DNA of 61,555 bases, the filler included, from Stramenopiles sp. TOSAG23-6 (lineage: Eukaryota), in the NCBI GenBank assembly GCA_900128565.1. It is 2 parts of 2 records of this genome, joined end to end, with 100 filler letters (N's around TTAATTAATTAA, not from the genome) between each part and the next. Parts side by side here need not be neighbours in the genome. Positions count along the whole stretch, not along the records: positions 1 to 30,741 come from LT635964.1; positions 30,842 to 61,555 come from LT635965.1. The stretch is one strand, 5' to 3'. Shown here in pieces: positions 1 through 61,555 of the stretch. The translations under genes were made by a program, and so were the position numbers. Numbering within the stretch: position 1 is the first letter of the stretch; every line of letters starts with the position of its first letter. Below the pieces are notes generated by a model that saw only the letters and a list, made by a program, of their open reading frames with translations, had not been told where the DNA came from and did not search any database.

Positions 1-99
1 TGAAAAAATATTTCAAAAAAAAAAACTTAAATTTGTTAGGTACAAAATTTCGTACAAAACAAAATTCGATTTTTTTGTTAAAAAAAAAATAAAACATAC
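1..99 (-). mobile_element. Introner-type intron (3' end outside window)
   Basis: AT|GTATGT donor, family core and CCTAAC branch site. Confidence 0.85.
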
Positions 100-3000
100 A
101 TATTAAATGGACATAACCAAGGCGAGCCTATATGATGGTCGCCTAATGCAGCTGCAACGGATAATGCGGAGCAGGAGTAAAACATATCCACGTATTTTGG
201 AAAAATATTTGAAAAAAAAAATCATTAGGTACAAAATTTCGTACGAAAAAAAATTCGAAGTTGAAAAAAAATAAAACGTACACTTCCAAATGTTTGTTAA
301 TATGATGATGATGGAGTCTTTCATACAAGGTTGTCAGATGACTTAAACTCCGAAATAAAGTATGTATTTTGGAAAAATATTTGAAAAAAAAATCGTTAGG
401 TATGAAATTTCGTATGAAAACAAATTCGATTTTTTTGTTAAAAAAAAAAATAAAAATATTTGAAAAAAAAATCGTTAGGTACAACATTTCGTATGAAAAA
501 AAAATTAAATTAGAAATTCATATAAAACGTACATTATCTTCATCCCATTCTTTACTTCTATTCAGTGTAATATGTTCAACTATAAAACGAAAACGCCGAA
601 AATCTCTAGTCAGAATTTCCAAAACTGTTTTACTACATACATTGCGTTTACAATGTTTTTTGGAAAAATATTTCAAAAAAAATCTAAACACAATTGTTAG
701 GTACAAAATTTTTTTACCAAAAAAAAAAATAAATTTGAAATTGAAAAAAAATAAAACATACATGCTGTTTGCTATTTTGATTGCTACCATCCTTACCATC
801 ACAAAATGAATTAGAATTCTGAGCTTGATGAAGGATTCCATTTGAATTATTTTGTCTACCATTGTCATAATTAAAAAGAGATTTTGGTTCAATTTCTGAA
901 CAAACTGAGCTGATATTATCATAAGTATTCATACTTAATTTTGCAATCATGACTAACGGAAATTGTAATAATGAATCCGATGTATTTTGGAAAAATATTT
1001 CAAAAAAAATCTAAAACATTTTGTTAGGTACAAAATTTCGTACGAAAAAAAAATGTAGACAAAAAATTGAAAAAAAATAAAACATACATGCTCCAGAATC
1101 ACTTATATGAGAATCTTGTACCATTTCTTCCGGCATAAAAATAACTCGCCAATCCGTTAATAGCAAGGTACCAATTTTTAGTTCGTTAGGAGTAGGGTCA
1201 GGACAAGAACCCAATATCGCAAGAATATGTATTGTGAAAAAATATTTTGTGAAAAAAATCGTTAGGTACGGAATTTCGTACGAAAAAAAAACTTGAATTT
1301 GAAATTCATTATGAAATTGTACATGAGGAATAACCAGTTCTGGGAGTTCTGTGGCTTTGGGTGGAAGAGAAAGAACTCTAGCCTGGGAAGCACGCTGATC
1401 TTTTGATGCATCAAGTAGTAACTTCACACGGCGTTTTCTGAAAAAGTCATTACGAAATTTTGATGCATACGTATTGCAAAAAAATATTGCAAAACAAAAA
1501 AATCGTTAGGTACAAAATTTCGTACGAAAAAAATAAATTCGAAATTGAAAAAAAAAACGTACACTGTGTACATATAAAATGATCCCATGCAATGCGAAGC
1601 GACATCAACTCACCGAAATTAAAAAACGTTTTCATTGCAAATTCTGCAACAGCATTTTGTAATTGAGTCCGTCTCGATGTATTTTGGAAAAATATTTCAA
1701 AAAAAAAAAATTAATTTTTGTTAGGTACAAAATTTCGTACGAAAAAAAATTCGATTTTTTGTTTAAAAAAAAAGATAAAACATACATGCTGCTAAAGATC
1801 TTGCACTGAACGGTTGGCGTGATTCCAACATTCCGCCCTCTCCTTTTTTTAATTCCATCTCTTCAATCGCTTTTACAAATATATTTTGGAAAAATATTTC
1901 AAAATTTACTATAAAAAAATTTGTTAGGTACAAAATTTTCAAAAAAAAAAAATCAATTTTTTGTTAAAAAAAAAAAATAAAACATACATAATTCAAAACT
2001 TCCTGGGGAAAAAATGGGTTTTTCTCCTTCAGTATTTTTAGTATTTTTAGTATTTTTAGTATTTTTAGTATTTTTAGATTGTTCACTCACCCACTTGCGA
2101 AGAACCTTTCGAGACCATCGAGATAGTTGGGCACCTGAAAGGTTTACAATTGTATTTTCATTACTAGTTGTAGAAAAATGAAAACCACGTTTTGCCGCTG
2201 CAGCTACGAAACGCCGAGTGACGTCATCAACTGCTTCTAGATTGGATCCAAGTCGAGTTTTTTCCACATTTGCTAAATTTTCAGCTCTTATATCAGCATC
2301 TATTTGAGCAACTTCTGCTTCTTTTTTTGCTGCATCTAACAAATCAATGTGTATTTTGGAAAAATATTTCAAAAAAAATCTTAAAAAATTGTTAGGTACA
2401 AAATTTCCTATGGAAAAATAAATTCAATTTCAAATTTAAAAAAAAAAAAAAAACATACATTTGTTTTTTCTAGATCCAAACACTTTTCAATATATAATTT
2501 ATCACTTGCAGAATCGTTAGGGTTAGGATTTTGGAGGCTAAAAGGAAGCGCCAATCTACCTTCGCTTCGAATATTTCGTATGAATTGTGGAAAAATATTT
2601 CAAAAAAATCTAAAAACATTTGTTAGGTACAAAATTTCCTATGAAAAAATAAATTCGAAATTGAAAAAAAATAAAACATACATTGATTCGTGAACAATAT
2701 TTTCACTCGGAGATATCGAACAAATGGCCTCAACCAAAATTTCTCCAGTCACATATAATGAAAAGAAATATTTCCAAAAATTGATTTTTTTGTTAGGTAC
2801 GAAATGTTCTATGAAAAACAAACTTAAAATTCATGATAAATAAAAACGAATATAATAAAAACGAATATAATAAAAACGAATAGTATATAAAAACTCAAAA
2901 AAAAATCTTTTTTGTTTTTTTTGTTTTTTTTTGTTTTTTTTTGTTTAGGTACGAACTTTCCTATGAAAAAAAATAATAAATGAAAACATACATGCTTTGA

Positions 3001-3804
3001 ACGTTTCGTCCGTTTGCCTAAGGGAAGCCATTCAGAACAGATGGTGCACGCAGATAGTGAACATATACTCATGTATTGTGAAAAAATATTTCAAAAAAAA
3101 ATTAATTTTTGTTAGGTACAAAATTTCGTACGAAAACAAATTCAAAATTGAAAAAAAAATAAAACATACATAGCAGCTTTCCCAAGAAATTTTCCAGTGC
3201 CAATTATAGATCGTTTGTGAAAAACTTCGACTTCAATAAAAGAGTGTAACCCTTGAGACAACGGAAATACAAACATCATGTCCCAACTAGGGTTAATACC
3301 CCCCTTCTTCTCACCCTCAATCTTATGGTCCAGTGTACATGTATTGTGAATTTTTTTTTTATAAAATTTGTTAGGTACAAAATTTCGTACAAAAAAAACA
3401 AAAATTTGAAATTGATAAAACGTACAGGCTTTTCCGCTACCAACACGTACTTCACAATATGGATTTAATGTTCCAACAGTTCCTTTGGAAGTCAAGTTTC
3501 GGGCGCTAGAAATTTTTACAACGATAAAAGGACCAAGGTCTTGCTGTTTGTGCCGAAGTGAAGACAACTCAAAGAACTCCTTTAATCCTCCTTGCGATCT
3601 ATAAAGTCGAACTGCAAGAGCTGGACGCTTTCTACACGATGCACGGGAATTAACTATAGGTACTATGTCTTCTACTGTAGGTGTATCTTGACCACCACCT
3701 TGATTTATTACAGTCTTCTTAGAATGAAAGTCACTATCAGACGAAGTTTCAACAGAAGGACAGGCATTTCGTTTTTTTCGTGAAAATGGGTTCCAACTCT
3801 TCAT
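1..3804 (-). CDS. C2-domain + PH-GRAM protein, probably myotubularin-related; 14 non-canonical introns, 3' end outside the window
   Basis: Removing 14 repeat introns gives one continuous frame from ATG 3804. C2 motifs: VKISSARNL..LNPYCEV..NPSWD..FVF..EVEVF..FLGKA..EWLPL..VTGEI. GRAM-like motifs: GTLLLTDWRVIF, FPLVMIAKL, LEILTRDFRRFRF. Confidence 0.75.
190..281 (-). mobile_element. Introner-type intron, GT-GT
   Basis: GT|GTACGT...CCAAAATAC-GT; 2-nt duplication GT/GT; frame restored (HLEVDMF). Confidence 0.85.
362..532 (-). mobile_element. Dimeric introner-type intron, GT-AT
   Basis: Two family cores with two CCTAAC sites inside one pair of termini; AT/AT duplication. Confidence 0.8.
653..761 (-). 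mobile_element. Introner-type intron, GT-AT
   Basis: AT|GTATGT...CCAAAAAAC-AT; joins SKQH to CKRN in frame. Confidence 0.85.
980..1087 (-). mobile_element. Introner-type intron, GT-AT
   Basis: Consensus termini; restores SGASDSLLQFP. Confidence 0.85.
1227..1322 (-). mobile_element. Introner-type intron, GT-AT (96 nt, stop-free in frame)
   Basis: AT|GTACAA...CACAATAC-AT; family core; reads as a 32-aa F/Y-rich insert in ORF 1011..1427. Confidence 0.8.
1469..1562 (-). mobile_element. Introner-type intron, GT-GT
   Basis: GT|GTACGT...TGCAATAC-GT; restores CTQYASKF. Confidence 0.85.
1677..1785 (-). mobile_element. Introner-type intron, GT-AT
   Basis: Consensus termini; frame restored (LAASRRTQ). 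Confidence 0.85.
1879..1987 (-). mobile_element. Introner-type intron, GT-AT
   Basis: Ends CCAAAATAT-AT; restores SFELFVKA. Confidence 0.85.
2031..2077. repeat. 9-bp coding tandem repeat (KNT)x~5
   Basis: (tagtatttt)n seen directly. Confidence 0.9.
2349..2458 (-). mobile_element. Introner-type intron, GT-AC
   Basis: AT|GTATGT...CCAAAATAC-AC; restores EKTNIDLL. Confidence 0.8.
2580..2681 (-). mobile_element. Introner-type intron, GT-AT
   Basis: Ends CCACAATTC-AT; nearly identical to the PRMT5 intron at 44436. Confidence 0.85.
2753..2991 (-). mobile_element. Long degenerate dimeric introner-type intron, GT-AT
   Basis: Two degenerate cores plus internal short tandem repeats; removal restores C2 end RSKH|VTGEILV. 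Confidence 0.75.
3071..3169 (-). mobile_element. Introner-type intron, GT-AT
   Basis: Consensus termini; restores FLGKAAMSI. Confidence 0.85.
3339..3425 (-). mobile_element. Introner-type intron, GT-AT (87 nt, stop-free in frame)
   Basis: CT|GTACGT...CACAATAC-AT inside the C2 domain. Confidence 0.8.
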
Positions 3805-11000: not shown

Positions 11001-14000
11001 GGGGCATTTACTAAGTTGAATAGAACTTTGGCAAAAGTAACCAGCTTTACATTTTCCTTCCTTTTCGGCATCTTTTGTATCTCGCTCAATCATTCTACAA
11101 ATTTTTCTTTCACCCTCTGAGTCTTGTACTTTGTGGGTATATTCAAGGCATGCTAACCTGTTTTGTTGGTGGCATATTTCACTCAGACCTGCTTGTGCTT
11201 CACAGGATGCGACCCAAATTCTTTCCGTAACCGACCTTTTAAAAACACCGTTGCAAGAATTTTCTGTGGTTTTACTACTATCATTGCATGTGTTGTTAGT
11301 ATAATCCCATACTCTATCAAAATCTTTCATAAAAGGCCCACCTTTGCAATCTGTCTCTGTAGTTTCATTAGGGTCATTACAAGAAAATACCTTTGTGCAG
11401 TGAGTTGGACACAATACATTTCCTTCTACAATAGTACTGGGACAATCCATAACTTCACATAAACCGGAACAAAAAGCACCTGCTTGACATACATCGGAAT
11501 CATGAGTTTGTGCTCGATTAGGACAGAATCTGCCATCTCTACATGGTCTACAAGTAGGAGTGTGAATTAATGCGCTGAATTTTCCAGCTTCACATTCTTC
11601 ACACTTGAAACTACCATCATCCTTTTGTGTATAATGCTCACCTGGACCACATGTTAAAGCCAACTTTGCTTCACTAAAATCACCTTTACCTTTATCATTT
11701 TCGGCTTGAACGCGTACAGAAATATTTGTCGTTCTGTTGACAGTCATAGTATGAACTACATTAAAAATACGCTCTGCGCCAGAAGAACAACCCCCAACAT
11801 TTGTTTCGCCAGATGCACCAACATTGAAATTGAACCCAGATATCATAGCCCCTCCATTTTCCGGGCACGTATACTTTACTTCAATGGTCAGTCGTGTTGA
11901 TGAGTCAGTTGTCGTGGCTGATTTTATAAAAGCTCTCAATATTGTTGGTGTTTTAGGAACAGTTGCGTCTAACGCTACATTGAATTCTGCCGTTAAATCT
12001 GTCCTTCCTAGACTATTTTCACCCCATGCAGTTATTTTGGCACCTCTAGTTCCCTCTTCAAGTCTAGTGACTGCAATTGATGACCCTGTCTCTACACTAA
12101 GCCACAACTTGTATTCACTTGATGATGTACACGAACAACTAGAATTGTTCCAGCTACATGCCGAATCACTATTGCAATCAGACTCCTCCAAAGAAGTGCA
12201 GCTACATGGCTTATCCTCAAGAGTTGGGTTAAATGTGCCCGTTGTAACATCTCCGCTGCGAGAAGTAGTAATCATGGCTAACTCCCCCATCCGTTTTCCA
12301 GATAAGAATTGTACAAGTAAGTTTTTATGGTCATCATTTGTGTCTGGATCAATATACGCACCTAATTCAAACGCATCGAGTTCAGTGTCAATAAGTGTTC
12401 CACTCAAATCACCATTGATAAATGTGTGAAATATAACATACTTGTCAGATTCGTCCTTTCCAAATGCCTTACCATCTTCGTTCACTCCATACAAGGCTGG
12501 CAACTCGTACACAACTATAGTTCCAGCAGCAGCAATATATTGAATTTGAGGTTTTGTGTATTTACCCACACGCCCATCCGGTTCCCAGAGAGGTACAGAT
12601 GCAAGAACACACACTTGATTATCTGCATCATACGTAAATATAATTCCTGCATCAACACATTTGGAAATTTTTTCTTCAATATCTAAATCTTCTTCGACAT
12701 CTCCGCATTCACCGGCATTGATAGCAAATAGTGAACATTCCTCTTTACAATGATCTTCATTGTAGTCGCCATCGTGTTCTAAATAACAACGACGCTGATT
12801 CCATACATTGTGAAAAAATATTTCAAAACAAAATCGTTAGGTACGAAATTTCGTACAAAAATTAAATTCGTAATTGAAAAAAAAATAAAACAAACATGGT
12901 TTCTCTTCTCCAACATTTAGCGTATGTGTAATAGATTCTTGAGATGATCCCCAACATACATTATAGTTCCTATCTATTGGTGCAATCTTGCAAGAGTTTC
13001 CTAAAACACTTAAACAATTGGACACATTCTGATTTGGACATTTATCTGAACACACGTCATCGACCCATTCACAAGCACTCCCTATATCAAGACAATCACT
13101 ACTGTTTAGGTGTGCATAACAAGGAATATGATATTTTCTTATACATTGTGGTGAAATATTAATCAACCCAATATCGTTACTAGAAAATTCAACTTGTTGT
13201 GTCATTCCTGGGGCTTCAATACCGAAAATAGTATAACTTATGGTAGTGTCCTCAATATCGGAAATTATTGGGGCATCCCACGTAACGGTAATTGTACTGC
13301 GCTCTGCGGTTGTGCTGCTGGTGGTTATTTTTGAAAAATATAGAATACTGTCAACAGTAAACTTAAACTTCCAACCAACGTAGTGATGCAGCGTAGGATT
13401 GAATAGGAAATTTTCTGGTGCATCAAGTATTGTAGACATGCGGTTTGCGCATCCCGATATTTTAGGGCATATTTCTTTACTCATCGTACTACACTGACAA
13501 TTATTTACATCATATGTGTTGCATTCACATGTTTCATCATTGGAATTATATGTACAATTGTCGTCACTTGAGCATTCTGAGACACTTTTGCTCTCACAGG
13601 CACATGTTGTTGAGCATTTACACGATTCATCCCAATGACAACCACCAGTGGTGTCACATTCAGATTCATCATATTGTTCACAAGTACAACTGCAATTACC
13701 AAAACAACGACTTTCAATATTTGAAAGTGATCCTGAAATACCTGTGACAGCTTTGTCACACGGCGCAGTAGTTACTTTGACATATGGCCTTGGCGAAGTT
13801 TCTTCAAAATAGTCAATAATGAAATGCATTTTATGTGTTTTAGTAGGAGAAAGAATTTTGTCCTGTTTTGACCAACCAAACATATCATCAATCATTGGAA
13901 CCCTGGTGATCTGTAAAGGGGTATCTTCTGAAATAGCATTATAAAATTCGTTATCATTCTCTAAAAGTTTATAGCAAACAGACACGTGGTCATCTTCGTC

Positions 14001-20000: not shown

Positions 20001-23000
20001 TGCGGAGGGAACTTGTGTGACTTCCAATAAATATTCAAGAGGGTTTGCTGCACCCCAATCGTAAGCAATATGTTCATTAATAGCAAGCTTACAGGCCGTT
20101 GTTTCGGTAAAAACAAACTGCACGGTTTTATTAGGTTGTACACAGAATGAACTCCGCCAAGCTTTTGTTACACATACTTCATTTATAAGGGTACATTCAC
20201 TAGTACATTGAGTAGGACTTCGGTTAAAACAAGGATCCCTACATTGTGTTTTACCAGCTATCTCTACTCTATCGCACAAAATGCCTTCAGGACCAGTGTA
20301 CAATACAGGGCATTTGCTTACTGAAAATGCTGAGCATGGATCACATGTAACAAACATTTCTACCCGGTTCGATGCATTTGTGCCCTTGTTTTTCCCACTT
20401 TTTACAACTTTAGTTGAGGTTGCACCCATTGTATGTCCGACAATGTCACAAACCGCATTATTCTCCCCCTCAAAAGTTGTTTTACCCAGTGACGATTTTA
20501 GCCTAAGTACATGTTGCCGGAAAAGACCTGTTGGATTTGGCTTATACGGAGTTTGGAATGTAAAATATAATTTTGTTGGCCGAATGTTAGATTCAATAGT
20601 ACTTAGTTGGGCAATTGCACCCATCTTGATATCGTCTACATCTATATAACCAAGGCACGATCCAACATTTTCGCTGTTTTGGTTTAGAACCAATAAATTA
20701 TTCTCAGTATCCAATGCACATGAAGTGCATGAATCCGCTTTATTGGCTTCAATGCAGGTGTTACACGTTGAATGACACGCGCCCGCAGCAAACACCTCAG
20801 CAGACCTGACAGTAACATCATGGCTTTGTCCCCAATAGAAAGAAAAATCGATGTATTGTTTCTTCTTGATGAAGCATCCATTTGAAGATTTCCTTGGCTC
20901 TATTCCATTTTCGTCAATGTCTACATTATTAGCTTTGCGAATAATCCAGGAATGTTGTTCTGCTTCTGCAGTAAACGATCCGTACAGTGCACATCCCTTC
21001 CAGTAATCGAGACCATATTGTCCAGCACCAGACCCAGCAACATATGCCTGACATTTTGGATTATCATTACATAGTTGCCGACATTCTTCAGATGAAGTCA
21101 CAGAGCCCAATGTAGCAGTTGGATTTGGACAGATTGGATATGGCCTACGTAATAAACCCTTGTATGTTTTTTCCAATGGTACACACGAATTTCCTGTAAA
21201 GCTACAGCATGAATTTTCCTTTGCTGGGATAGATTGGCATATCGAGAATTTATCTACGACACTAGATGAAATTCTTGATTGCTTCACTTCACATGTGTCT
21301 TGATAATCTGAGCCATTTGTACAATCATCCTCGTCTTCCATTTCACATGATCCATCATCACCGAAACGGCAACATCGATCAGCTTCACTTAGATTATTAC
21401 ACGATTGCAATGTTGTAGGATTTCTTTTTGTGGGACATAAGAGATCCACATCTGCGACATTTGTTATGTAGCTCTCGAGAGGGCGCGTAGAGCCATTTAA
21501 AGATATACCTTTGCAAACACCAAGTTGTCCATTACTTGACGCAATATATCCTTCGATACTTTCGTGACTTTTGAACTTACAGTGCGATCCACTTTTAATT
21601 ACAACTTTTATCGGAGCTCCATGTGGGAGATTGTCATTCAGCGATATTGAAATGCTCTCTTCTTTTTCGGCAAGCATACAGTCACTTGAATTTGTGATAA
21701 TCTCATATCCGTACTTGCAGAAATAATAAAAATCTTCAGAACATTTTTTTCTACCCAATGCACTGCAATCTGGGTCATTCATACACTTAGTCTTAGCATC
21801 TTCTAAAGAATCAAACTCTTGGAAGTTGTACTGATGAGGAGCATCATGTATTGTGGAAAAATATTTAAAAAAAAAAATCATTAGATACAAAATGTAGTAG
21901 AAAAAAATATTTAGGTAAAAATTGAAATGAAAACATACACACGACAAATTCATCGATTCCATAAATAAATAAGCTATATTTGCGGTATCAAAATACTCTT
22001 CATCGTCACCATTGACATTCTTAACACTGACGTCACACTGACTTTCACCAATTGGTAAACCTTTACCTTGGCTATCGATAAAAAAGGGAATATTTGCTTG
22101 GGATTCATCACAGGGTTTGACAGTGTAATATTTCCAGCTCAGACCAAAAGATGGTGCATTGGACAGTGATACATTAGAATTATTGAAGACAATACATTCT
22201 TTCTCTTTCGGATTATATAATATTGCATTACATATACTACCCCAATTCGAGCATATATTGAAACAACTTTCAATAGTGGAGTGATTATTTTTCACTTTAC
22301 TTGCTTTACCTTGTGATATTTGTTGTTGATGAGAATTTGAACCACTTGGATGAAAGAAAGAACTCCCCTCAAAACGGGGGCAATTCACATCTACGAATGA
22401 AAACTTTCGTTTATGAACCATAAAATGTATGTTTGATGTATTCTGCGATACTCTGAATTTTGTAGAGATAGTTGTGGGTGCATGATCTGGACCAAATTGT
22501 AAGGAATCCATAAAAACACTCAGTTGACATTTACCTACGATATCACTAACTTCAGTTAGTGACAGTTCCCCATTACAATTTCCACAACGAGTTGCATCAT
22601 TTTTATTATTACAACCATTGCAGGTTTCGTGACAATCATTTAGTCCAATGCTTTGCAACGACTCTCTCTTGTGTTGTTCATCGGTAAAATAATGATTCCA
22701 CTCCCTATAATAACTTCCGCCATTTCCGTCAGAATATTTATGTCTCCATCGAATACCAAGACCTCTGTTATCATCATCGGCGGAATCAATTTCCCTAAAT
22801 CTACAATCACTGTCATCATTTTCGTCTGATTGCATTATAATGGTTAACACTTCTCGATTTTGGGGAAATAAAGCAGTGGTTGAAAATTTGGCCAATATTG
22901 AAACATCTTTAGTGGCTAGATACATCTCTTCATGTTCTTCATCTGGATTAAGTGAAGGACATTTTTCATCATCTTCATCCAATGTTATGAAACCACTCTC

Positions 23001-30686: not shown

Positions 30687-30741
30687 ATGTATTTTGGAAA
30701 AATATTTCAAAAAAAAATCTTAAAAAATTTGTTAGGTACAA
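30687..30741 (-). mobile_element. Introner-type intron, 3' half only (runs into gap)
   Basis: CCTAAC...CCAAAATAC-AT followed by SLC37 exon. Confidence 0.8.
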
Positions 30742-30841
30742 NNNNNNNNNNNNNNNNNNNNNNNNNNNNNNNNNNNNNNNNNNNNTTAATTAATTAANNN
30801 NNNNNNNNNNNNNNNNNNNNNNNNNNNNNNNNNNNNNNNNN
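30742..30841. other. Assembly gap (100 nt) containing a TTAATTAATTAA six-frame stop linker
   Basis: N-run with ttaattaattaa at 30786-30797. Confidence 0.95.
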
Positions 30842-30901
30842 TTGTTAGGTACAAAATTTCGTACGAAAAAAAATAAATTCGAAATTGAAAAAAAAACATA
30901 C
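30842..30901 (-). mobile_element. Introner-type intron, 5' half only (TERT intron 2)
   Basis: AT|GTATGT donor and core up to the branch site, then gap. Confidence 0.8.
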
Positions 30902-43760: not shown

Positions 43761-45849
43761 TTAAAGTCCTATCCAATGCGACTGACCATTTACATTATGT
43801 ACACTTGACAATACAGGTGTCACTACTGACCATTCGTACCAAACTTTTGTACTTGAAACACAACGCCACATATGAAGTTCGATTTCTTCACCCTTTTTAC
43901 AATAAAATGGTGTTTTTAAAGGTAAGTACAATGGGAACCAACTAAACATTCCTAAAGAAAAAGTCTTTGGATTAATTGATATAAAAGCATCACAATCCTC
44001 TGGAGATAAAATTTCATAATTTTGTTCAATTGATTTTTTTGATTTTGGTACGGAATTTTGTACTATTTTACTTTTACTTTCTTGTCGTTGGTGTAAAGGA
44101 GATTCAAAATAACCAGCAAAGCCATGAACCATTGTCCCTTCTTTTTGTTTGAATTTTAAAATTTTGTACCTGTTATTATTTATATCACTTATAGGACGTA
44201 AAGGATGATTAAATGTAAAACAAGGTTTTGCTTCAGCTAATTGTTTAAAATTATGCATTTTAACCACATATCCAGTTTCAAATGGTTTTTTTGTTGGATG
44301 GGAATGAGCCCGCACCTTATTCCATAATTTTGATGATGTTATTGGTGCAACAAATGATGTATATTGACAAGGAATACTGACACCCGTATCTTTCAAAAAT
44401 GTTTGAACACCATATAAACATTCAGGTGAAAGCTCATGAATTGTGGAAAAATATTTCAAAAAAATCTAAAAAAATTTGTTAGGTACAAAATTTCTTATGA
44501 AAAAATAAATTCGAAATTGAAAAAAAAGTAAAACATACATTATCACTAAAGGAACCTAGTAATTCACTAATCATTATATCTGCCTTGACAGGTGCGTTCC
44601 AATGACGCATATCACAGGACACAATAACGACGTCTTCACCCCACTGTAAATCATTATGAAGGCTTTTTAATGTAACTACTGCATTTTGATTTTTTTCAAC
44701 TGCATAAATCTTCACTTTTTGGCCGACTTTCTCAGAAGCTCTTAATGCAGCTCTTATGAGTGGACCTCTACCAGCACCAACAACCATGATGATTGGTACT
44801 AATGTACCTGTTCCCTCTCTTATATGACGTTTTTTAAGTTCTTCTAAAGCATGAAAAGTCGCATTTTCATACTCTTTATATTTGACTGGATCACGCTCAA
44901 ATACTTCATACGTCGCCGATTCTAAATTGTCCATTAAAGGCTGTAGTGGAGCTTGCAACACATCATAATACGGTTCCTCAAATAAATCAGCTTCTGTAGG
45001 TACATCCTGAGTCTTACTCATATGATTGATATATAATGCATACACTCCTAATCCGTTATTGTGAAGACTATTACCTCGAATAAGCACCTGAACTTTAGAA
45101 CTCATTAAAGCTCTTAAAATTTTTTGGTGTTGACGAGACAAAGTTGGAAAACCAGAGGAATTTGTCAGAAAAATTTCTGTTGGAATAACTACTGCTTTTA
45201 TAGGTTCAGATAGCCAACGGGTTTGTTCTTCCCATGAAGGTAGATTTTTAGTGAATACTAGACACACAAAAAGACTTGGGGAGTGGTTGCACATACAACG
45301 AAAACGATTCCACGCTTCCCAAGGGTCAGCCGATACGTCAAGAGAAGGTTGGTTGTCATTAGACATATCAGATATATCACTTGTCAATGTATTCCTATAT
45401 GCCAGTGGTACTTCTACCCACATTTGAGCATGTCCAGGTATTGCAACCTTTTGGCTGATACAGCGAGCATAGTTTATACAGTTGTAGTAAAGAGGTGGAA
45501 GGAGAATAGCTGGAACGGATAAGTGTGTGGCCCACGCCAACTCTTGAAATAAAGTTTTCTCAGCAGTGGCACGGACATTATCTGAAACAGAGTCCAAATT
45601 AAACCATCGAGATATTTTACCTACTATCATAGTGGTCCATTGTCCACTAGGCATCACTTTATCCGTTCGTGTAAATGGGCCTTGGCGTCCCGCTGATATG
45701 CCGTTGTCATCCCGATGGAAACGAGGATGCACTAATGGAGCTACAACAAAATCAAAGTGTTCCTTTACGGCATTATTTAAACTTTCCACTAAATCAGGGC
45801 AACAGTGCAGGTCTAATCCAGTGAATGTCCGAGGGCGACTTGCAGTCAT
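43761..45849 (-). CDS. PRMT5: Protein arginine N-methyltransferase 5 (2 exons)
   Basis: LQAPLQPLMDNLESATYEVFERDPVKY, VVGAGRGPL, SELLGSFSDN|ELSPECL, GMFSWFP, KVWYEW. Confidence 0.97.
44436..44538 (-). mobile_element. Introner-type intron, GT-AT
   Basis: Precise removal restores the double-E loop GSFSDNELSPECL. Confidence 0.95.
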
Positions 45850-46063: not shown

Positions 46064-49007
46064 ATGCTTCGAGTTATCCTTCTTTGTATTTGTTTGAAAA
46101 ATGCCAATGGTAATATGAGTATGATGTGGCCTACTGGTGAAGTAAACTTTAATTATGGCAACAACGGGCTCACATCATGGTCATTTTACATTAGAGCTTT
46201 CAATCTTGCCCCAGGTGGTTTTGGGGATGCCGAGTTTGGGTGGGGTCAGTGGTCGAAACCATCATCCACAGATATAAACTTTAATGATGTTTGTGCGATC
46301 AATCCGTTAGGTTTTACTTGTGAGGATGGTGAGAATGGAGGCGCAGGTTGCATCACATATGACCGCGAGTCACTGCCAAATACTCAAACGGCATGTGAAA
46401 AGTCGTGTAAAAATGAAAGTGACGAAGAGAAGAACGGGGTTTCGAACTGCCTAAAGTCCCAATGGACAGACAATTTAAAACAATTTTGTGGTTCAGCTGA
46501 TTATTCTGAACGTGAGAAATGTGAATATTGGATTTGTGGAAATGATAATAAGGGAGGTGTCGTTGGTTCTATTGAGGGAGGAATGGGTTATTGGCCATAT
46601 ACTTTAGAGAAGAAACAGGTAACGTGGATGCTTCCAGGTGCTACAACATCTAATTATGAAATGTTTGCTGGAACATTCCTTGTATGTTTTTTTTCTATTT
46701 CGTGGTTTTGAATGCTTTTTGTGGTGAGGTTCAATTGGACGATTCACTTTTAAAAAAAAAGAATTGTAGAGCAAATTTCATACCTAACAAATTTCGAATT
46801 TGACATATTTTTTCAGAATACTTGCTGATCAAGCACAGCCATGTAATAATTTGGGCGGGGCTGTTCGAATATCAAACCATCTTCTTGTACCAAGTGATAT
46901 GGTGAGCTTTGAAGGTGGTGATGTGATAGATGGATTTTTAGGATATATGCTTGCTGATACACCAATAGGAAAACGTAGTGAAACTGATGATGTGAATAAT
47001 TGGACTATTATCATTGATACTGAAAACTTTTCTGGTCCTGTACTTTACATTTCAAATTGGTTTTGGGAAACACGAGTAAATTGGCATCCTAAATCAAAGA
47101 GTTGGAGTCACCCTAATGCAAAAGTTGGTTACATTGCACGTGGGGCTGAAGGTAAAATTATGGGTAAAATTTCAAATACCATAAAAAACTCAAATGATGA
47201 ATATTGGGCATATACTACACGATGGGGATTACCTAAAGATTCCACAAAAATAAATGAAGAATATACTTCAACAATAATGACTGGGCATTCTCAGTATGAG
47301 GAACCAACTCAAGCAGGTGAGAAAAATTGGATTGAAAACACAATTGAACCAATTCTTAGTGGTAACAAAACAGTAGAAACAATGCCTTCAGATGAAATTT
47401 TAAATAAATCAAAATCTGCTCGAATTCAACCAAAATGTAATCAAGTTGATCGCTCTGGTATTTCAAAGGGTGAAATGCATTTAATACATGAAAACACCAA
47501 AACAACTTTTGTAGGTTTTGGGGTCAATTACGATGATCCATCAGATTCAGATAATAAAACAAATGGATGTCCTATCCGGTATAAGCTTGATAAAACAATA
47601 ATGGATTGTACAACGAGAAGTGATTTATGTCTTGCACCGAAATATCTCACCATCAAAAATACTTCTGGAGAAGCAGAGCATCTTTCCACTGTTAAAAAGG
47701 ATAGTGATGTCCCAACAGATGTGAAGTCACAATTAGAGAAGGAAAATCCGCTTCCAAAAGGTGATTCGCGAGGTCTTCGGAATGCAACAGGGTATTACTA
47801 TGAGCCAGCAAATGAGGAAAAACGATGTTTCAATGATCCTGGTCCATCAGATCAAAAATTATATTGTGTACGAACCAACACAAAAAGTTGGATTGGGTAT
47901 AAATGGTATAAATTTGTTGATCAACCAGAATTAACAAATATTTTTGCATCAATTCCGACACCTGAAGAAAGAAAAAAAGTAAAGGACTTTATGCAAGCTC
48001 GAATTGAAAGACTTCATTCTTATCAAAATTCAGTTAAGGGTGGAGTTCAATGGTTTGATGCACCTGGTCAATTACCTTCGAAAAAAGTAAAGATTGACGA
48101 AAATTTACTAATACAACCACCTGCTGGAATGGAAATTGGATATGTTCCAATTCCTATTTATCAAAAACTTAGAAAAAAGCCGAAAAATTGTGATGTTGTT
48201 ATTGGATCAAAAACAACAGAACCTGATCCATTGCCAAATGATTATTTTTCAAAATATCCTGGACAAACAAGAGATCGAGAAAAATTTACTTGTAAAAATG
48301 ATGCAAACGCAAAGAGTTTGAATCCAGCTAAATTTTATCCCGGTACAATTTTTCCAACTCCACCAAAAGGTACAACAGCTACCGTCCAAGAACGGATTGC
48401 ATATAAATATGAAGTACCTACATTAGGTAGTGATGACGTAATAAAAAAAGATGATACCGGTAGTGATGACGTAATAAAAAAAGATGATACCGGTAGTGAT
48501 GACGTAATAAAAAAAGATGATACCGGTAGTGATGACGTAATAAAAAAAGATGATACCAGTAAAGATGCAGAAAAGGAATTCAATCCAAACGCAAAAATAT
48601 CATTTAGTGCTGACATGACAGTCACATACAATATGGAATATGATCCTAGTGTTAACACTGCAAAACTTAAGAGTGAGATTGTGACTGCAGTTGAAACGGG
48701 AGGTCTACTATCCGTGAAAAATGGTACAAATGGAGTGAATATTTATGATGGTTCTCTCAAAGCAGATTTTACTGTACAGATGACTGCTCCCGAATCAGAG
48801 AAAAGTGAACTTCAGTTGTTGGGAAAAGAAATGGAAGCACTAACAAAAGATCGATTGTTACTGGCGAGGGTCAATAATGGTTTAGTTCCATCTGTTACTG
48901 CACAAAATGTAAGAGTGTCTCCATTGCGTGCTAATGAAACTTCATCGAAAGAATTTAGATCATACGCTAGTTTAAGCTTTTGTATTATTTTAATGTTTAC
49001 CTTCTAA
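46064..49007 (+). CDS. Secreted, possibly GPI-anchored protein of unknown function (2 exons)
   Basis: Signal peptide, W/G/Y-rich body, repeat stalk, hydrophobic C-terminus. Confidence 0.75.
46682..46823 (+). mobile_element. Diverged introner-type intron, GT-TT
   Basis: TT|GTATGT...TACCTAAC...TTCAGAATAC-TT; TT/TT duplication; using the upstream CAG gives TGA after 3 codons. Confidence 0.8.
48426..48557 (+). repeat. 33-bp coding tandem repeat x4 (GSDDVIKKDDT)
   Basis: Four near-exact units. Confidence 0.95.
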
Positions 49008-57865: not shown

Positions 57866-59880
57866 TCAATTTTCAATACAGTTTACTCTATAACAATGGA
57901 ATCTGTTTGCTAATTTCCGTACGTTGTTTAATTTTGTGCGTGTTTCGGTTTCTTCTGCGATTAACACGTGGCATTGTTTTGAACATTTGTAGCAAGACAT
58001 AAGCTTTACTGCCCAGGCTCCTGACTTTATTCTATTTGTATTTTTCCCCTCTGTTCCAGTATAAAACCATTGAAATAAATCTTTTACAGAACTATTACAT
58101 ATATTTGATGAAAGAGTAAACTTGGTATACCAAATTGCTAAATCACTCAAAAGACTAATGGTGGAATTAATAGTGGCAAGTGAATCACAAAGCCACTTTT
58201 TATATTCCATATGTAAAAAATCTATTTGCTGCATTTGTTGAATTTTTATATCATTTATATTGATTGATTGATTGTCAATATTTTCTAAAATTTCTATTTG
58301 GGAAAAGGCAAAGTGACTGAAATCATTAAATATTTCAAAACCTTTCATACATAAAACACTCAATTGTTTTTTTTTGAAAGGTGATATATTAACATTAGTG
58401 AGATTATCATTGGCATTTGATTTTTTTGATTGCTTTGTTAAAGGTGAAAGAATTTCTGTGCGTTGATTCATCGTGTTCCTAGATTTTATGTCGTTAGATT
58501 TCATCTTAGTCTTTGGTATTGATTCTTCAATATTGACTTTACTAGATTCTTCAAATTCTTCAATATTACTTGATTCTTCAATATTGACTTTACTAGATTC
58601 TTCAAATTCTTCAATATTACTTGATTCTTCAATATTGACTTTACTAGATACTTCAAATTCTTCAATATTACTCGATTCTTCAATATTGACTTCACTCTCA
58701 GAATTCAGTTCTGCCCAAGACTCCATCATATCATCATCATCATCATCATCATCTTCATATGTTTCATTTTCATCATCTTCTTGTGCACTACTACTTGACT
58801 CATTATCACTATCATGTAATGCTTTTACCGTTTCTAATATTTCCACAAGCTTTCGACGAGCCAACCAAACTTTACCTTTCAAGGAGTCGTTAATATATTT
58901 TGTGAAAAAATATTTTTTTTTTTGTAAAAATATTTGTTAGCTATGAAATTTCGTATGAAAAAAAAATTATGAAAAAAAAATCGATTTTTAAAACGTACAT
59001 AGGCATGCTGTAATAATTCACCTGATGTCGGTCTATCAGCTGGATCCTTCTGTAAACATATCTCAAGAAAACTGGACAATAATGTACCTGCCATTTCTTC
59101 ATCTCGTAGTCTAGGTGAAGGTAAAGAAGGGATTTTTGTAAGTGCTTGCATGGGAACCAAATCAAAGTTGGGTGGTTCCATTTCAGCCATTTCGATGGCA
59201 GTTACAGCGAGTGACCAAATATCGGCAGATGCATCATATTCATTTCCATCTATGACTTCAGGAGCCATCCAATACGGAGTTCCAACAAATGTGCTACTTT
59301 TTGCTACGTTGCCACTCAGCATTGTAGAAACACCAAAATCTGCCATTTTGGCTACTCCACCAGAAGCTAATAAAATATTTCCGCCCTTGATATCTCGGTG
59401 TATAATTTTCTTACTATGTAGATATGAAAGACCACGCAAACTATCTTGTAATATTATTGAAATTTCATTAGGTGTAAACGGAATACCACGGCGATTGTAT
59501 ATGTCACTGACAGAGCCGTAAACACATTGCTCCATTGTGATCCAAACAGCATTCTCTTTATAATAAGTACCTATGTACCGTACAATATTAGGATGAGAAC
59601 ATGCTCGTAACATTTCGATTTCGTCTTTCATCCCTACAAGTTCTTCACGTCTTCGACCCTTGTGTGTGGGAAGTCGAATGACTTTAATTGCAACAATCTG
59701 ATTTGTCTCTAAATGCTCAGCCTGATAAACAGCGCCAAATGAACCTTTTCCTAGGCGATCAAGAAGTTTAAATAGAAGTGTTGGGTCAGTCCGACTCAAT
59801 GGGATACCTCGCTTTAACAAAGATGTGCGGCGAGCCATTGACTCGCGGGCCGGCTTGATTCGGCGCTTTCCTCGCTTCAT
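57866..59880 (-). CDS. STE20-family Ser/Thr kinase (2 exons; start codon uncertain)
   Basis: GKGSFG, VAIK, HRDIKGGN, DFG, GTPYWMAPE; acidic tail after splicing. Confidence 0.92.
58520..58691 (-). repeat. 48-bp coding tandem repeat x~3.5 (SKVNIEESSNIEEFEE)
   Basis: Seen directly. Confidence 0.9.
58895..58998 (-). mobile_element. Introner-type intron, GT-AT
   Basis: AT|GTACGT...CACAAAAT-AT; restores kinase end ELLQHAYI. Confidence 0.85.
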
Positions 59881-60258
59881 TTGGTCTAGTTTTGTTATGA
59901 TAAGTAATGCATTCAATTTTAAACTTCAGAAGTTCATTCATGAATAATTCATTTTGATTTGAGAGATTTGAAGAAGTTTGAAGAAGTTGACGCGAAGTCA
60001 GACATCAACTCAAGTTTCGAATTTCTAATTTAATTTGAAACACGAAAAAATCTGAAAATAGTAATGTCAAAAAACGAGGGTGGCAAATATTTTGCTTTTC
60101 TTTCTCCTCTTGCAATTAACTTTTTATTCACTGTATTGTTGAAATTTTTTGAGGAAATTTTGACACAAACACCACAACAAACAAAAGCAAAAGTTGAAAA
60201 AAACAAGGAGAACTTTTCTTTTTTGAAGGTACGAAGAACGCATCATAAAACGTCCAAA

Positions 60259-61555
60259 ATGTCAAATTCTCCACCAGCGGACAAGCTAACATCTGTTGAT
60301 TTAAGTAGGCCACATTACTCAATGGATAGTGCCATCCGTGAAAGAACACGAAGTAACTCTTTTACCGAGTCATTACGTCCTTCTCCACCTATTGCCTACA
60401 ATTGGACATCTGTTGCTGTGCCAAGAACTGCATATAATGTGCGCTTGTACTGTATACCTCACGCGGGTGCGTTTGGCACGAATCCTTATTCTAATTGGGG
60501 GAAACTCCTTCCTGAAACAATTGAGCAAGTCACAATTTTACCTGGTGGAAAAGCGCGACGTGACTCTATCTCTGATGGGCGACAAGACTATGAAAACGAT
60601 GCCACGTCTATAGTTGCAGGAATCATTCAAATATTAGCAATGTGTGATAGACCATTTTGTCTTTTTGGTCACTCTGCGGGAGCTACTTTGGCTTTACAAG
60701 TTGTGATATCGCTTCAGCGCCAAGGTGCAGTATTGCCTATTAAACTATTTTTATCAGGATGCTCTCCACCACAAAAATACATTCCATTGCGATCCGATTG
60801 GAAAGAAGAAAAAGTTTTATGCAAATTAATTCGTGAGTGGGGAGGAACACCAGAAGATGTTTTACAAGATATCGAACTCAAAAAATTGTTGTTGAATCGT
60901 CTTCGAGCCGATCTCGCTTGCGCGGAACAATCATCTAGACTCATAAAACATGCTCTCGCCAAAATGTCAATACAGTGTGATGTTACCATTATTGGTGGGA
61001 AAGATGATCGAACGGTACCAGTAGCAGAATTAATTCACTGGGAATCTCATATTGGTGATGAACAAACCTGCTGTACAATGAAAATAAAAATCTTTCCGGG
61101 TGGTCATTTCTATCTTGATGAAACATCTCAATTGTCAAATTCAATTTCTAATTTACATAAATGGTTAAATGACGAAATTAGATTTGCTTTACAAAATGAA
61201 CTTGAACGTGCAAATTCACAAATTGAGCTATGGAATTCAAATACTATGGAATATGTATGTTTTATTTTTTTTCAAATTAGATTTTTTTTTTCGTACGAAA
61301 TTTTGTACCTAACGATTTTTGTTTTCAAATATTTTTCCAAAATACATACACCATATACACCGAAATATGATAGGAAGAAGATGCGTGTTCCTGCTTGGTG
61401 TGATCGAATATTATGGAAAGAAAAGAATAACAATACTAATAATAATAATAACAATAATAATACTATTCATAATAATAATTCAAAAGTTGAACTTTTACAT
61501 TATGTATGTTTTATTTTTTTTCAAATTCGAATTTTTTTTTCGTACGAAATTTTGT
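60259..61555 (+). CDS. Type II thioesterase domain followed by an inositol 5-phosphatase C-terminal motif; runs off the window (absent from the ORF track)
   Basis: Hand translation from ATG 60259: RLYCIPHAG, FGHSAG, LFLSGCSPP, LRADL, GGKDD, FPGGHFYL, then RVPAWCDRILWK. Confidence 0.82.
   Translation, partial: MSNSPPADKLTSVDLSRPHYSMDSAIRERTRSNSFTESLRPSPPIAYNWTSVAVPRTAYNVRLYCIPHAGAFGTNPYSNWGKLLPETIEQVTILPGGKARRDSISDGRQDYENDATSIVAGIIQILAMCDRPFCLFGHSAGATLALQVVISLQRQGAVLPIKLFLSGCSPPQKYIPLRSDWKEEKVLCKLIREWGGTPEDVLQDIELKKLLLNRLRADLACAEQSSRLIKHALAKMSIQCDVTIIGGKDDRTVPVAELIHWESHIGDEQTCCTMKIKIFPGGHFYLDETSQLSNSISNLHKWLNDEIRFALQNELERANSQIELWNSNTMEYVCFIFFQIRFFFSYEILYLTIFVFKYFSKIHTPYTPKYDRKKMRVPAWCDRILWKEKNNNTNNNNNNNNTIHNNNSKVELLHYVCFIFFQIRIFFSYEIL
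61255..61347 (+). mobile_element. Introner-type intron, GT-AT (93 nt, stop-free)
   Basis: Consensus termini and core. Confidence 0.85.
61504..61555 (+). mobile_element. Introner-type intron (cut by window end)
   Basis: AT|GTATGT donor and TTTCGTACGAAA core. Confidence 0.8.

What the first reader, a model, noticed from the sequence alone, without database searches (positions are those of the whole stretch)
1..61555. Window-wide intron system without a 3' AG: GT-AT (also GT-GT, GT-TT, GT-AC, AT-AT, AT-AA) introns dominate
Seen: 34 related insertions in 11 genes, versus one GT-AG intron. Of 31 visible 3' ends, 26 are AT, 2 GT, 1 TT, 1 AC, 1 AA and none AG. Removal restores conserved motifs exactly: PRMT5 SFSDN|ELSPECL, SLC37 NGPYAL|ITTAVSADLG and ALC|IPGV, VVP|CCVFP, kinase LLQHAY|I, plus 13 consecutive complete junctions in one gene. 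Established: GTATGT and CTAAC are U2-type donor and branch signals, the U12 donor is RTATCCTT (absent here), and the 3' AG is nearly invariant. Mass non-canonical introns are known in a few lineages (Fritillaria, Amoebophrya, euglenids), as far as I recall with other end patterns. Inference: this organism has a spliceosome with relaxed 3' splice-site recognition, and these essential genes need it.
Basis: partly seen in the sequence, partly recalled or inferred. Interest (0 to 1): 0.95.

Follow-up and report, generated by a model that had tools for sequence, protein, structure and literature searches.

The report
Transposon-like introns lacking 3' AG
A marine protist's genes are interrupted by dozens of copies of one small transposon-like element that appears to be spliced out of the RNA without the usual AG at its end, as already described in the tunicate Fritillaria but apparently not in this kind of organism.

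Summary
The window carries 29 complete and 2 end-truncated copies of one AT-rich element (87-239 nt, most 92-110), all sense-oriented inside coding frames of 10 genes. Each starts GTATGT-like, carries an ACCTAAC branch-like box 32-45 nt from its 3' end, and none ends in AG (24 AT, 2 GT, 1 TT, 1 AC, 1 AA). Removal at family-aligned ends keeps frames open in 29 of 29 (controls 4 and 6 of 28). Three junction sides match solved homologs to the residue. One poly(A) metatranscriptome contig skips one copy exactly, while DNA contigs run into it. The inserts are an introner family with inverted-repeat-like ends. The 3' dinucleotide copies the last two exon bases (24 of 29, permutation P=1.4e-4), like a target-site duplication. 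The same design (YAY triplets, 3' AT commonest) is published for Fritillaria, with a related transposon-derived design (TIRs, 3-5 nt TSDs) in Amoebophrya. The closest protein label points to an uncultured marine stramenopile, where I found no such report. So this is a new member of a known kind. Only one junction is seen in RNA, and the splicing machinery could not be examined.

The parts
1..99 (-). Element copy cut by the window start (5' GTATGT at 99, preceded by TAT), in gene 1
190..281 (-). Insert, GT-GT, upstream exon also ends GT; gene 1 (C2-domain protein)
362..532 (-). Composite insert (about one and a half elements, two branch boxes), GT-AT; gene 1
653..761 (-). Insert GT-AT; internal TAG 31 nt before the cut is out of frame; gene 1
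980..1087 (-). Insert GT-AT; gene 1
1227..1322 (-). Insert GT-AT with divergent head (GTACA); gene 1
1469..1562 (-). Insert GT-GT, upstream exon also ends GT; gene 1
1677..1785 (-). Insert GT-AT; gene 1
1879..1987 (-). Insert GT-AT; gene 1
2349..2458 (-). Insert GT-AC (upstream exon ends AT); gene 1
2580..2681 (-). Insert GT-AT; gene 1
2753..2991 (-). Composite insert GT-AT (3' end set by hand at 2753); gene 1
3071..3169 (-). Insert GT-AT; an AG 3 nt downstream is an in-frame alternative; gene 1
3339..3425 (-). Insert GT-AT inside the C2 domain coding region; upstream exon ends CT; gene 1
12803..12895 (-). Insert GT-AT (head GTTTGT) in the giant gene (frames 5071-25093); the one copy seen removed in RNA
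   Evidence: (X7 record 17 joins 12895 to 12801; DNA X3 record 9 runs to 12836)
21846..21938 (-). Insert GT-AT, 93 nt, open in frame; upstream exon ends GT; giant gene
23825..23916 (-). Insert GT-AT; upstream exon ends GA (no repeat); giant gene
26124..26230 (+). Insert GT-AT (head GTAGG); restores VVP|CCVFP; RanBP-type zinc-finger gene
26344..26436 (+). Insert AT-AT (head ATATGT); same gene
29166..29261 (-). Insert GT-AT in the SLC37-like gene; both flanking exons align without a gap to SLC37A2 residues 407 and 409, and the split codon supplies 408
29610..29709 (-). Insert GT-AT, SLC37-like gene; downstream exon starts at SLC37A2 P295
   Evidence: upstream side found no match
29971..30063 (-). 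Insert GT-AT, SLC37-like gene (holds single N's)
30242..30333 (-). Insert GT-AT, SLC37-like gene; no AG from the branch box to +30
   Evidence: homology unresolved
30687..30901 (-). Insert with both ends visible (GT-AT) and two N runs inside; true length unknown
34733..34825 (+). Insert GT-AT in an unassigned gene (32027-35092)
44436..44538 (-). Insert GT-AT in PRMT5, between N and E of the conserved DNELSPECL
46682..46823 (+). Insert GT-TT, upstream exon also ends TT; a TTTTTTCAG ending at 46816 would give a stop after 3 codons
52816..52907 (+). Insert AT-AA in an unassigned gene (52015-54611)
58895..58998 (-). Insert GT-AT at the end of a protein-kinase domain (LLQHAY|I)
61255..61347 (+). 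Insert GT-AT in a thioesterase-domain gene
61504..61555 (+). Element copy cut by the window end (preceded by TAT), same gene

Best explanation
The inserts are copies of one short, non-autonomous, transposon-like element (an introner) that has spread into the coding exons of a marine protist. By the label of its closest database protein, the protist is an uncultured marine stramenopile. Each copy brings its own U2-type 5' splice site (GTATGT) and a branch box (ACCTAAC) but no 3' AG. It is removed from the pre-mRNA, most likely by the major spliceosome, with the first cut before GTATGT. The second cut falls two bases past the element's own end (...ATAC), so one copy of the duplicated target dinucleotide (usually AT) leaves with the intron and the original frame is restored. 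On this reading the 3' dinucleotide is not a recognised signal but whatever the target site was (AT, GT, TT). The cut would be placed by something else in the conserved 3' arm, or by distance from the branch point (inferred). Shown: the family, its ends, sense orientation, frame restoration, residue-exact junctions, and one exact removal in poly(A) RNA with the element present in DNA. Inferred: the spliceosomal mechanism, the DNA-transposon origin, and genome-wide spread.
For: One family: 29 complete and 2 truncated copies, mean pairwise identity 0.79 (range 0.59-0.98), GC 0.19 against 0.35 for the window. All 31 are in sense orientation relative to the flanking frames. Frames are restored in 29 of 29 against 4 and 6 of 28 in shifted controls. 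Gene 1 opens to 732 codons after 13 removals. Homology: PRMT5 exon 1 ends at human N443 and exon 2 begins at E444, and 7 of 7 homologs keep DNELSPECL. SLC37A2 residues 407 | 408 (split codon) | 409 are contiguous across 29261-29166, and the next exon upstream starts at 295. RNA: X7 record 17 (8157 nt, poly(A) metatranscriptome) joins 12895 to 12801 with no letters between. The four equivalent cuts are AT..GT, TG..TA, GT..AT and TT..TG, none of them AG. The DNA contig X3 record 9 extends 35 nt into that element at the same depth as the flank. Family-wide: 7191 contigs of the DNA run were laid, nearly all on elements, against 67 of the poly(A) run, although the poly(A) run covers the unique gene at depth 18.7 against 9.4. 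Signals: +1 G 27/29, +2 T 29/29, +5 G 28/29, ACCTAAC 24/29. Target-site duplication: the last 2 exon bases equal the last 2 insert bases in 24 of 29, permutation mean 18.45, P=1.4e-4, with GT/GT twice and TT/TT once. AT precedes 22 of 29 copies against a background dinucleotide frequency of 0.115. Ends read GTAT...ATAC. Precedent: Fritillaria and Amoebophrya (PMC13326754 sections 4 and 21; PMC11282704 section 6).
Against: Only one junction is seen in RNA. That contig differs from the DNA contig at 12719, so an allele that never received the insert cannot be excluded for that single case. Contig depths are poor measures (one search says so). The inverted repeat is short and imperfect (4 bases, then a T/A run). 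No transposase lies in the window and no empty site was found. Five of 29 copies break the 2-nt repeat. Two copies start with AT, which is unusual for a U2-type site. Five copies carry a TAG about 30 nt before the cut, and one a TTTTTTCAG 7 nt before it, which a conventional spliceosome would be expected to use. The branch box is neither TACTAAC nor CCTTRAC. Two searches for transcript-derived proteins crossing junctions found nothing. The lineage assignment rests on a database label.
Confidence: 0.72

Rival explanations
1. The inserts are removed by a minor (U12-type) or U12-derived spliceosome, which places its 3' cut with little regard to the terminal dinucleotide.
For: The termini seen here (GT-AT 23, AT-AT 1, AT-AA 1; R at +1, TAT at +2 to +4) overlap the published non-canonical U12-type repertoire: AT-AN and GT-AT are splicing-competent, and AT-AA, AT-AT and GT-AT are listed (PMC1557818, passages read). 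In Physarum, U12-type introns seem to have been spread by a transposon with inverted repeats and a 2-nt direct repeat (preprint 10.1101/2020.10.12.336362, passages read). Upstream AGs are bypassed.
Against: None of 29 copies has the CC at +5 and +6 of RTATCCTT; 28 of 29 have G at +5, as in U2-type sites. No copy has CCTTRAC. The branch A lies 32-45 nt from the 3' end, longer than the short spacing I recall for U12-type introns. Whether the organism has U11, U12, U4atac or U6atac could not be checked.
Confidence: 0.12
2. Same splicing, different origin: the family spreads by reverse splicing and retro-insertion of excised introns, not as a cut-and-paste DNA element. The 3' AT would then be part of the element and the upstream AT a preferred proto-splice site.
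For: All 31 copies are in genes and in sense orientation. No transposase in the window. The inverted repeat is weak. Most of the 2-nt identity follows from both positions being mostly AT (expected 18.45 of 29).
Against: The three non-AT ends GT, GT and TT match their upstream exon bases (P=1.4e-4 overall), which an intrinsic 3' end does not predict. The structure AT-GTAT...ATAC-AT is symmetrical. Sense-only copies are also expected from selection, in a window that I estimate by eye to be about nine-tenths coding.
Confidence: 0.15
3. The inserts are cut out of the DNA (as ciliate internal eliminated sequences are), or the transcribed allele simply lacks them.
For: The RNA contig alone cannot tell RNA splicing from an insert-free template. 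A marine ciliate is reported to have replaced introns by DNA-level elimination (preprint 10.64898/2026.07.09.736142, abstract and outline seen).
Against: DNA contigs of an independent metagenome run into the elements at the depth of the flanks (X3 records 9, 12, 13, 14, 15). All copies are sense-oriented and carry conserved 5' and branch signals, which DNA excision does not need. Frames are open under the standard code, and PRMT5 ends in TAA where its homologs end.
Confidence: 0.03
4. Ordinary GT-AG splicing at nearby AGs, with small insertions or deletions in the proteins, as the public CDS model of the PRMT5 gene assumes.
For: Nine of 29 sites have an in-frame, open AG alternative. The public model P0001 uses the AG 3 nt downstream in PRMT5.
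Against: Twenty of 29 sites have no such AG, and 4 have no AG at all from the branch box to +30. The RNA-verified junction is not at an AG; the nearest are 8 and 24 nt downstream and out of frame. In PRMT5 the AG choice deletes the E of DNELSPECL that 7 of 7 homologs and the solved structures keep.
Confidence: 0.03
5. Non-spliceosomal RNA excision guided by pairing of the intron ends, as proposed for euglenid nonconventional introns.
For: The ends GUAU and AUAC can pair, and do so in the minimum-energy fold of 12 of 24 copies.
Against: Folding energies are no better than shuffles (mean z -0.62). Conserved GTATGT and ACCTAAC signals are not expected in such introns (PMC11282704 section 6).
Confidence: 0.04

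Closest known systems
Non-canonical introns of the larvacean tunicates Fritillaria borealis and F. pellucida (PMC13326754, sections 4 and 21 read; Henriet et al. 2019 known only through that paper and the review PMC11282704, section 6)
   Same: Introns derived from small transposons with inverted repeats and target-site duplications. A YAY triplet stands before the 5' site and forms the last three intron bases; here that is 16 of 29 upstream and 25 of 29 at the 3' end. 3' AT is the commonest 3' end there (44% and 34%). AG is not needed. The introns sit at lineage-specific positions in otherwise intron-poor genes.
   Different: The main F. borealis classes start with AG (AG/AC, AG/AT); here 27 of 29 start with GT inside a yeast-like GTATGT. 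The host here is a protist by its proteins, not a chordate. One family accounts for every non-canonical insert found in this window. Whether U2AF is duplicated, as in F. borealis, could not be tested.
Non-canonical introners of the parasitic dinoflagellate Amoebophrya (PMC7789003, seen in search listings only; summarised in PMC11282704 section 6)
   Same: A marine protist in which multi-copy transposon-derived introns with TIRs and TSDs have non-GT-AG borders.
   Different: TSDs of 3-5 nt with variable borders and an apparent lack of U1 snRNA are reported there. Here the 5' site is a strong U1/U6-type consensus and the repeat is 2 nt.
Canonical introners of Micromonas, Aureococcus and many aquatic eukaryotes (PMC9860276 and PMC12130899, passages read)
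   Same: Near-identical elements that create introns on insertion; some have TSDs and TIRs; one splice site is carried by the element and the other involves the target duplication.
   Different: Those families are spliced GT-AG (or GC-AG). The 2025 survey states that families with mainly non-canonical sites were discarded unless RNA alignments supported them.
U12-type introns, including the transposon-driven expansion in Physarum (PMC1557818 and preprint 10.1101/2020.10.12.336362, passages read)
   Same: R at +1, tolerance of GT-AT, AT-AT and AT-AA, and in Physarum inverted repeats with a 2-nt direct repeat.
   Different: The 5' and branch consensus of U12-type introns are not met, and the branch-to-3' distance is long.
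Ciliate internal eliminated sequences (preprint 10.64898/2026.07.09.736142, abstract and outline seen)
   Same: Short AT-rich intervening sequences with a repeated dinucleotide at the borders, removed precisely.
   Different: Those are removed from DNA and need no orientation. Here the elements are in bulk DNA, all in sense orientation, and carry splice signals.

Membership tests
Introner (multi-copy, transposon-like element that forms spliceosomal introns) | Many near-identical copies | tested here: met
   31 copies in 61.5 kb, mean pairwise identity 0.79; 7191 contigs of a DNA metagenome run laid, mostly on the elements
Introner (multi-copy, transposon-like element that forms spliceosomal introns) | Copies lie in genes, in sense, and exact removal restores the coding frame | tested here: met
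   29 of 29 against 4 and 6 of 28 in controls; 732-codon frame after 13 removals; residue-exact junctions
Introner (multi-copy, transposon-like element that forms spliceosomal introns) | Removed from RNA while present in DNA | tested here: inconclusive
   Met for 1 of 29 copies (12803-12895); the other 28 were not covered by a bridging RNA contig in the rows shown
Introner (multi-copy, transposon-like element that forms spliceosomal introns) | Terminal inverted repeats and target-site duplication (DNA-transposon subclass) | tested here: inconclusive
   2-nt repeat in 24 of 29, P=1.4e-4; ends GTAT...ATAC but short and imperfect; no empty site, no autonomous partner
Fritillaria-type non-canonical introns | YAY triplet upstream of the 5' site and as the last three intron bases; non-AG 3' end | tested here: met
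   16 of 29 upstream, 25 of 29 at the 3' end, 0 of 29 AG
Fritillaria-type non-canonical introns | 5' AG termini of the main F. borealis classes; larvacean host | tested here: not met
   GT 27, AT 2. The best protein hit carries a marine-stramenopile-type label, and no tunicate appears among the best 120 PRMT5 hits listed
Fritillaria-type non-canonical introns | Removal by the U2-type spliceosome with duplicated, divergent U2AF | not testable with these tools
   No genome held
U12-type (minor) introns | 5' RTATCCTT | tested here: not met
   At most 5 of 7 positions match; +5 and +6 are GT, not CC, in 28 of 29
U12-type (minor) introns | Branch box TCCTTRAC close to the 3' end | tested here: not met
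   CCTTRAC in 0 of 29; ACCTAAC at 32-45 nt
U12-type (minor) introns | U11, U12, U4atac and U6atac snRNAs present | not testable with these tools
   No genome held; no Rfam match in the window
Ciliate-type internal eliminated sequences | Absent from the bulk (somatic) DNA | tested here: not met
   DNA contigs enter the elements at flank depth
Euglenid nonconventional introns | Stable secondary structure that brings the ends together; no conserved spliceosomal signals | tested here: not met
   Mean z -0.62 against shuffles, end pairing in 12 of 24; conserved GTATGT and ACCTAAC

The most novel reading that the evidence does not exclude
This free-living marine stramenopile has independently evolved a second splicing step that is blind to AG. 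It passes over a polypyrimidine-CAG 7 nt upstream and TAGs 30 nt upstream, and cuts two bases past the end of the element whatever those bases are. Nearly all of its introns (thousands) are of this kind, so the public gene catalogues of the lineage are systematically mis-spliced.
Probability: 0.4. Interest if true: 0.8.

Novelty: new member of a known kind. Interest (0 to 1): 0.62.

Why it matters
Why GT-AG is almost universal is an old question, and lineages that break the rule on a large scale are few. Fritillaria and Amoebophrya are the transposon-borne cases summarised in the review I read. A further, unrelated lineage would allow a comparative test of what has to change in the machinery. 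It keeps a textbook 5' site and a branch box with the CTAAC core and drops only the 3' AG, in a small unicellular genome. The finding that the 3' dinucleotide simply copies the target site suggests that the cut is placed by position and not by sequence. There is also a practical side. GT-AG-only gene callers get these genes wrong. The public CDS of this PRMT5 lacks the conserved glutamate at the junction and six further in-frame pieces. Such errors would affect functional and metatranscriptomic work on uncultured marine protists.

Tried and rejected
**Origin ideas dropped**
- Tunicate origin. I suspected it after reading PMC13326754; one search rejected it (best hit carries a stramenopile-type label, others 40-52% across eukaryotes).
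- Ciliate or Mesodinium-type DNA elimination. Rejected.

**RNA and protein searches**
- RNA evidence for more junctions. Parts without RNA cover say nothing.
- Transcript-derived proteins crossing junctions. Searches found nothing, which is weak evidence.

**Wider occurrence**
- A 17-nt core of the element gave 64 metagenome and 6 viral loci. The full profile matched none of the 70 except one weak partial hit, so these were chance matches.

**Negative scans**
- Rfam scan of the window: no match.
- Transposase in the window: none.

**Mechanism tests**
- RNA structure: weak.
- Rule 'first CAT after the branch box': holds for all 18 CAT-ending copies but cannot explain the TAT, GT, TT, AC or AA ends.
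- AT-AC reading (cut 2 nt upstream): permitted in 23 of 28 copies but gives AC in only 16 of them, and AT-GT for the RNA-verified copy.

**Homology checks that gave nothing**
- Junction 30333-30242, and the upstream side of 29709-29610: unresolved. One search was an out-of-frame slip.
- The 32-residue extra stretch in PRMT5 (43992-44087) is in-frame coding sequence, not an element.

**Unavailable**

Full report
**What is there.** The window is AT-rich (GC 0.27-0.42 in 2-kb steps). It has long open frames under the standard stop codons, up to 1528 codons. A profile built from them finds 36 non-overlapping hits.

I merged two composite copies and one copy split by N runs, and set aside two weak partial hits (35905-35937, antisense inside a coding frame; 50764-50822, between genes). 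That leaves 29 complete copies and 2 cut by the window ends. They are 87-239 nt long, most 92-110, with GC 0.19 against 0.35 for the window and mean pairwise identity 0.79.

The copies lie in 10 genes:
- a C2-domain gene at 1-3822 (14 copies);
- a giant gene whose frames run from 25093 to 5071 (3);
- a RanBP-type zinc-finger gene (2);
- an SLC37-like sugar-phosphate exchanger (5);
- PRMT5 (1);
- a protein kinase (1);
- a thioesterase-domain gene (2);
- three unassigned genes (1 each).

Every copy is on the strand of its host frame.

**Is it more than chance?** I fixed each insert's ends by alignment to the family (first base of GTATGT, last base of ...ACAT), not by reading frame. Six ends were corrected by hand from the printed sequences. 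Removal then leaves at least 30 open codons on both sides in 28 of 28, and also in the copy at 46682-46823. With the 3' end moved by 1 or 2 nt, only 4 and 6 of 28 pass. Removing the 13 complete inserts of gene 1 gives one open frame of 732 codons over all 2198 nt, against 226 codons unspliced. The SLC37-like gene is open for 429 codons across four inserts.

The ends are GT-AT 23, GT-GT 2, GT-AC 1, GT-TT 1, AT-AT 1 and AT-AA 1; none is AG.

**Could nearby AGs do the job?** An in-frame AG that keeps the frame open exists at 9 of 29 sites. At 4 sites there is no AG at all between the branch box and 30 nt into the exon. Five copies hold a TAG about 30 nt before the cut. It is out of frame or meets a stop in three of them, and in PRMT5 it would add 10 residues inside a conserved loop. 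At 46682-46823 a TTTTTTCAG ends 7 nt before the family-aligned cut; using it gives a stop after 3 codons, whereas the GT-TT cut joins more than 100 open codons to more than 200.

**Homology.**
- *PRMT5.* Exon 1 aligns to human PRMT5 up to N443 (numbering of 4gqb), and exon 2 from E444. The nine codons before it have no counterpart. Seven of seven homologs read DNELSPECL.
- *The public model.* P0001 is a public CDS of this same gene (584 of 589 aligned residues identical). It reads SFSDN|LSPECL, so it uses the AG 3 nt downstream and loses that glutamate. It also lacks six other in-frame internal pieces.
- *SLC37-like gene.* The exon from 29608 aligns to SLC37A2 (9ucm) residues 295-407. The next exon starts at 409, and the split codon supplies 408. 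A rice homolog gives 398 | 399 | 400.
- *Unresolved.* The junction at 30333-30242 and the upstream side of 29709-29610 could not be resolved.

**RNA and DNA.** Twelve public runs hold part of 26000-35999, five of them RNA. I laid three RNA runs from three studies and one DNA metagenome run on 10023-30022.
- One poly(A) metatranscriptome contig (X7 record 17, 8157 nt, 29 differing letters over the 3186 bases laid) joins 12895 directly to 12801. It therefore skips 93 nt.
- The four equivalent placements of that cut are AT..GT, TG..TA, GT..AT and TT..TG, and the frame stays open.
- The DNA contig X3 record 9 runs 35 nt into the same element at the depth of its flank. Four other DNA contigs likewise end inside elements.
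- The DNA run gave 7191 laid contigs, nearly all on elements, with element-bearing bins at depths of about 250 to 16,500 against 5-10 elsewhere.
- The poly(A) run gave 67 laid contigs, although it covers the unique gene more deeply (18.7 against 9.4).

This suggests thousands of copies in the genome and removal of the family from mature RNA, but contig depths are rough. One caveat is that the RNA contig differs from the DNA contig at 12719, so an insert-free allele is not excluded for that one case.

Single-base differences at 10184, 14285, 18598 and 19435 lie in homopolymers, and DNA contigs of X3 show all four; RNA contigs also show those at 10184, 14285 and 18598. They explain the frame changes of the giant gene. 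Two further breaks sit at A7 runs.

**What the inserts are.** The best-conserved parts are the 5' GTATGTTTT, a GTACCTAAC box and a 3' arm ...ATATTTTTCCAAAATAC-AT. The ends read GTAT...ATAC.

The two bases before the element equal its last two bases in 24 of 29 copies. Because both positions are mostly AT, the expected number is already 18.45. The excess is still significant (P=1.4e-4), because the two GT-ending copies follow GT and the TT-ending copy follows TT. AT precedes 22 of 29 copies, against a background frequency of 0.115.

I read this as a 2-nt target-site duplication of a small transposon-like element. Each intron is then the element plus one copy of the duplicated dinucleotide. That explains both the exact restoration of frames and the absence of AG. 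It also means that for 23 of 28 copies the product cannot tell GT...AT from a cut 2 nt upstream. That reading gives AT-AC in 14, other pairs in 9, and AT-GT for the RNA-verified copy. GT at the 5' end is therefore the one rule common to nearly all copies. The last intron base is T in 27 of 29.

**Mechanism.** G at +5 in 28 of 29 copies, together with GTATGT, fits U1/U6 pairing. CTAAC fits the general CTRAY branch consensus; both consensus statements are recalled. The branch A lies 32-45 nt from the cut, in two modes that follow two length variants, and the conserved ATAT lies 15 nt from the cut in 21 of 28. I infer that a U2-type spliceosome makes the second cut at a position set by the 3' arm or by distance, not by the dinucleotide.

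The main rival is a minor-type spliceosome. GT-AT, AT-AT and AT-AA are published U12-type variants, and Physarum shows transposon-borne U12-type introns (PMC1557818 and 10.1101/2020.10.12.336362, passages read). The U12 5' and branch consensus are not met here, however. End pairing in the RNA is weak. DNA-level excision is contradicted by the DNA contigs and by the sense-only orientation.

**Organism.** The best hit of PRMT5 exon 1 is P0001, whose source label begins GSMAST32. Another good hit is labelled INCI739, which I recall as a cultured relative of the MAST-3 group. The rest are 40-52% identical and spread over eukaryotes, with no tunicate among the best 120 listed. The DNA occurs in seawater metagenomes. 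I therefore take the host to be an uncultured marine stramenopile. This rests on labels, not on a tree.

**Comparison with what is known.** Soo et al. 2026 (PMC13326754, sections 4 and 21 read) describe Fritillaria introns with a YAY triplet before the 5' site and as the last three bases. They report 3' AT in 44% (F. pellucida) and 34% (F. borealis) of introns, and link this to duplicated U2AF. A review (PMC11282704, section 6 read) attributes these introns to MITEs with TIRs and TSDs, and describes similar introns in Amoebophrya. Here YAY occurs in 16 of 29 copies upstream and 25 of 29 at the 3' end. The design is the same; the 5' end (GT, not AG) and the host are not.

**Novelty searches.** Four genome papers on this protist group say nothing of splice sites or unusual introns in their main text (PMC5778133, PMC12614181, PMC8163842, 10.64898/2026.04.17.719054; term searches). 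Two introner surveys do not mention the group. A search for GT-AT introns returned only rare single cases and U12-type lists. Supplements were closed. Within these searches the case is unreported.

**Verdict.** The finding is best filed as a new member of the known kind 'transposon-derived non-canonical introns', found in a new lineage and with its own end pattern.

Noticed in passing
window 43761-46002 (-) versus P0001: The public CDS model of this PRMT5 gene lacks, besides the junction glutamate, six internal in-frame pieces of 7-26 residues that are ordinary coding sequence here. They look like spurious short introns called by a GT-AG-trained predictor.
   Followed up: partly
window 10184, 14285, 18598, 19435; also 7166-7206 and 36889-37052: Single-base length differences in homopolymer runs break long frames. 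At the first four, contigs of the sequencing runs (DNA for all four, RNA for three) read one base shorter than the window. The giant gene is probably one frame of about 6,600 codons with three inserts.
   Followed up: partly
window 362-532 and 2753-2991 (-): Two composite inserts hold one and a half to two element units with two branch boxes: nested or tandem insertions that still restore the frame when removed as one piece.
   Followed up: partly
window 35905-35937 (+) and 50764-50822 (-): Two weak partial profile hits. One is antisense inside the coding frame of a CCCH zinc-finger gene, the other lies between genes. They could be decayed fragments or chance.
   Followed up: no
window 43992-44087 (-): PRMT5 carries a 32-residue lysine- and serine-rich stretch with no counterpart in human PRMT5. 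It is in frame and is not an element copy.
   Followed up: partly
all element copies, just upstream of the branch box: A small hairpin (GUACGAAAUUUUGUAC) recurs in the minimum-energy folds immediately before CUAAC. Its 3' arm overlaps the branch box.
   Followed up: no
window 41784-43409 (-) and 49236-50660 (+): Two amino-acid transporter (Aa_trans) genes lie 6 kb apart and hold no insert, as do several other genes in the window.
   Followed up: no
run X9: An RNA library labelled 'other' holds 974 element-bearing contigs at depths far above the unique exons, unlike the poly(A) run. This could be pre-mRNA, excised introns or DNA carry-over.
   Followed up: no
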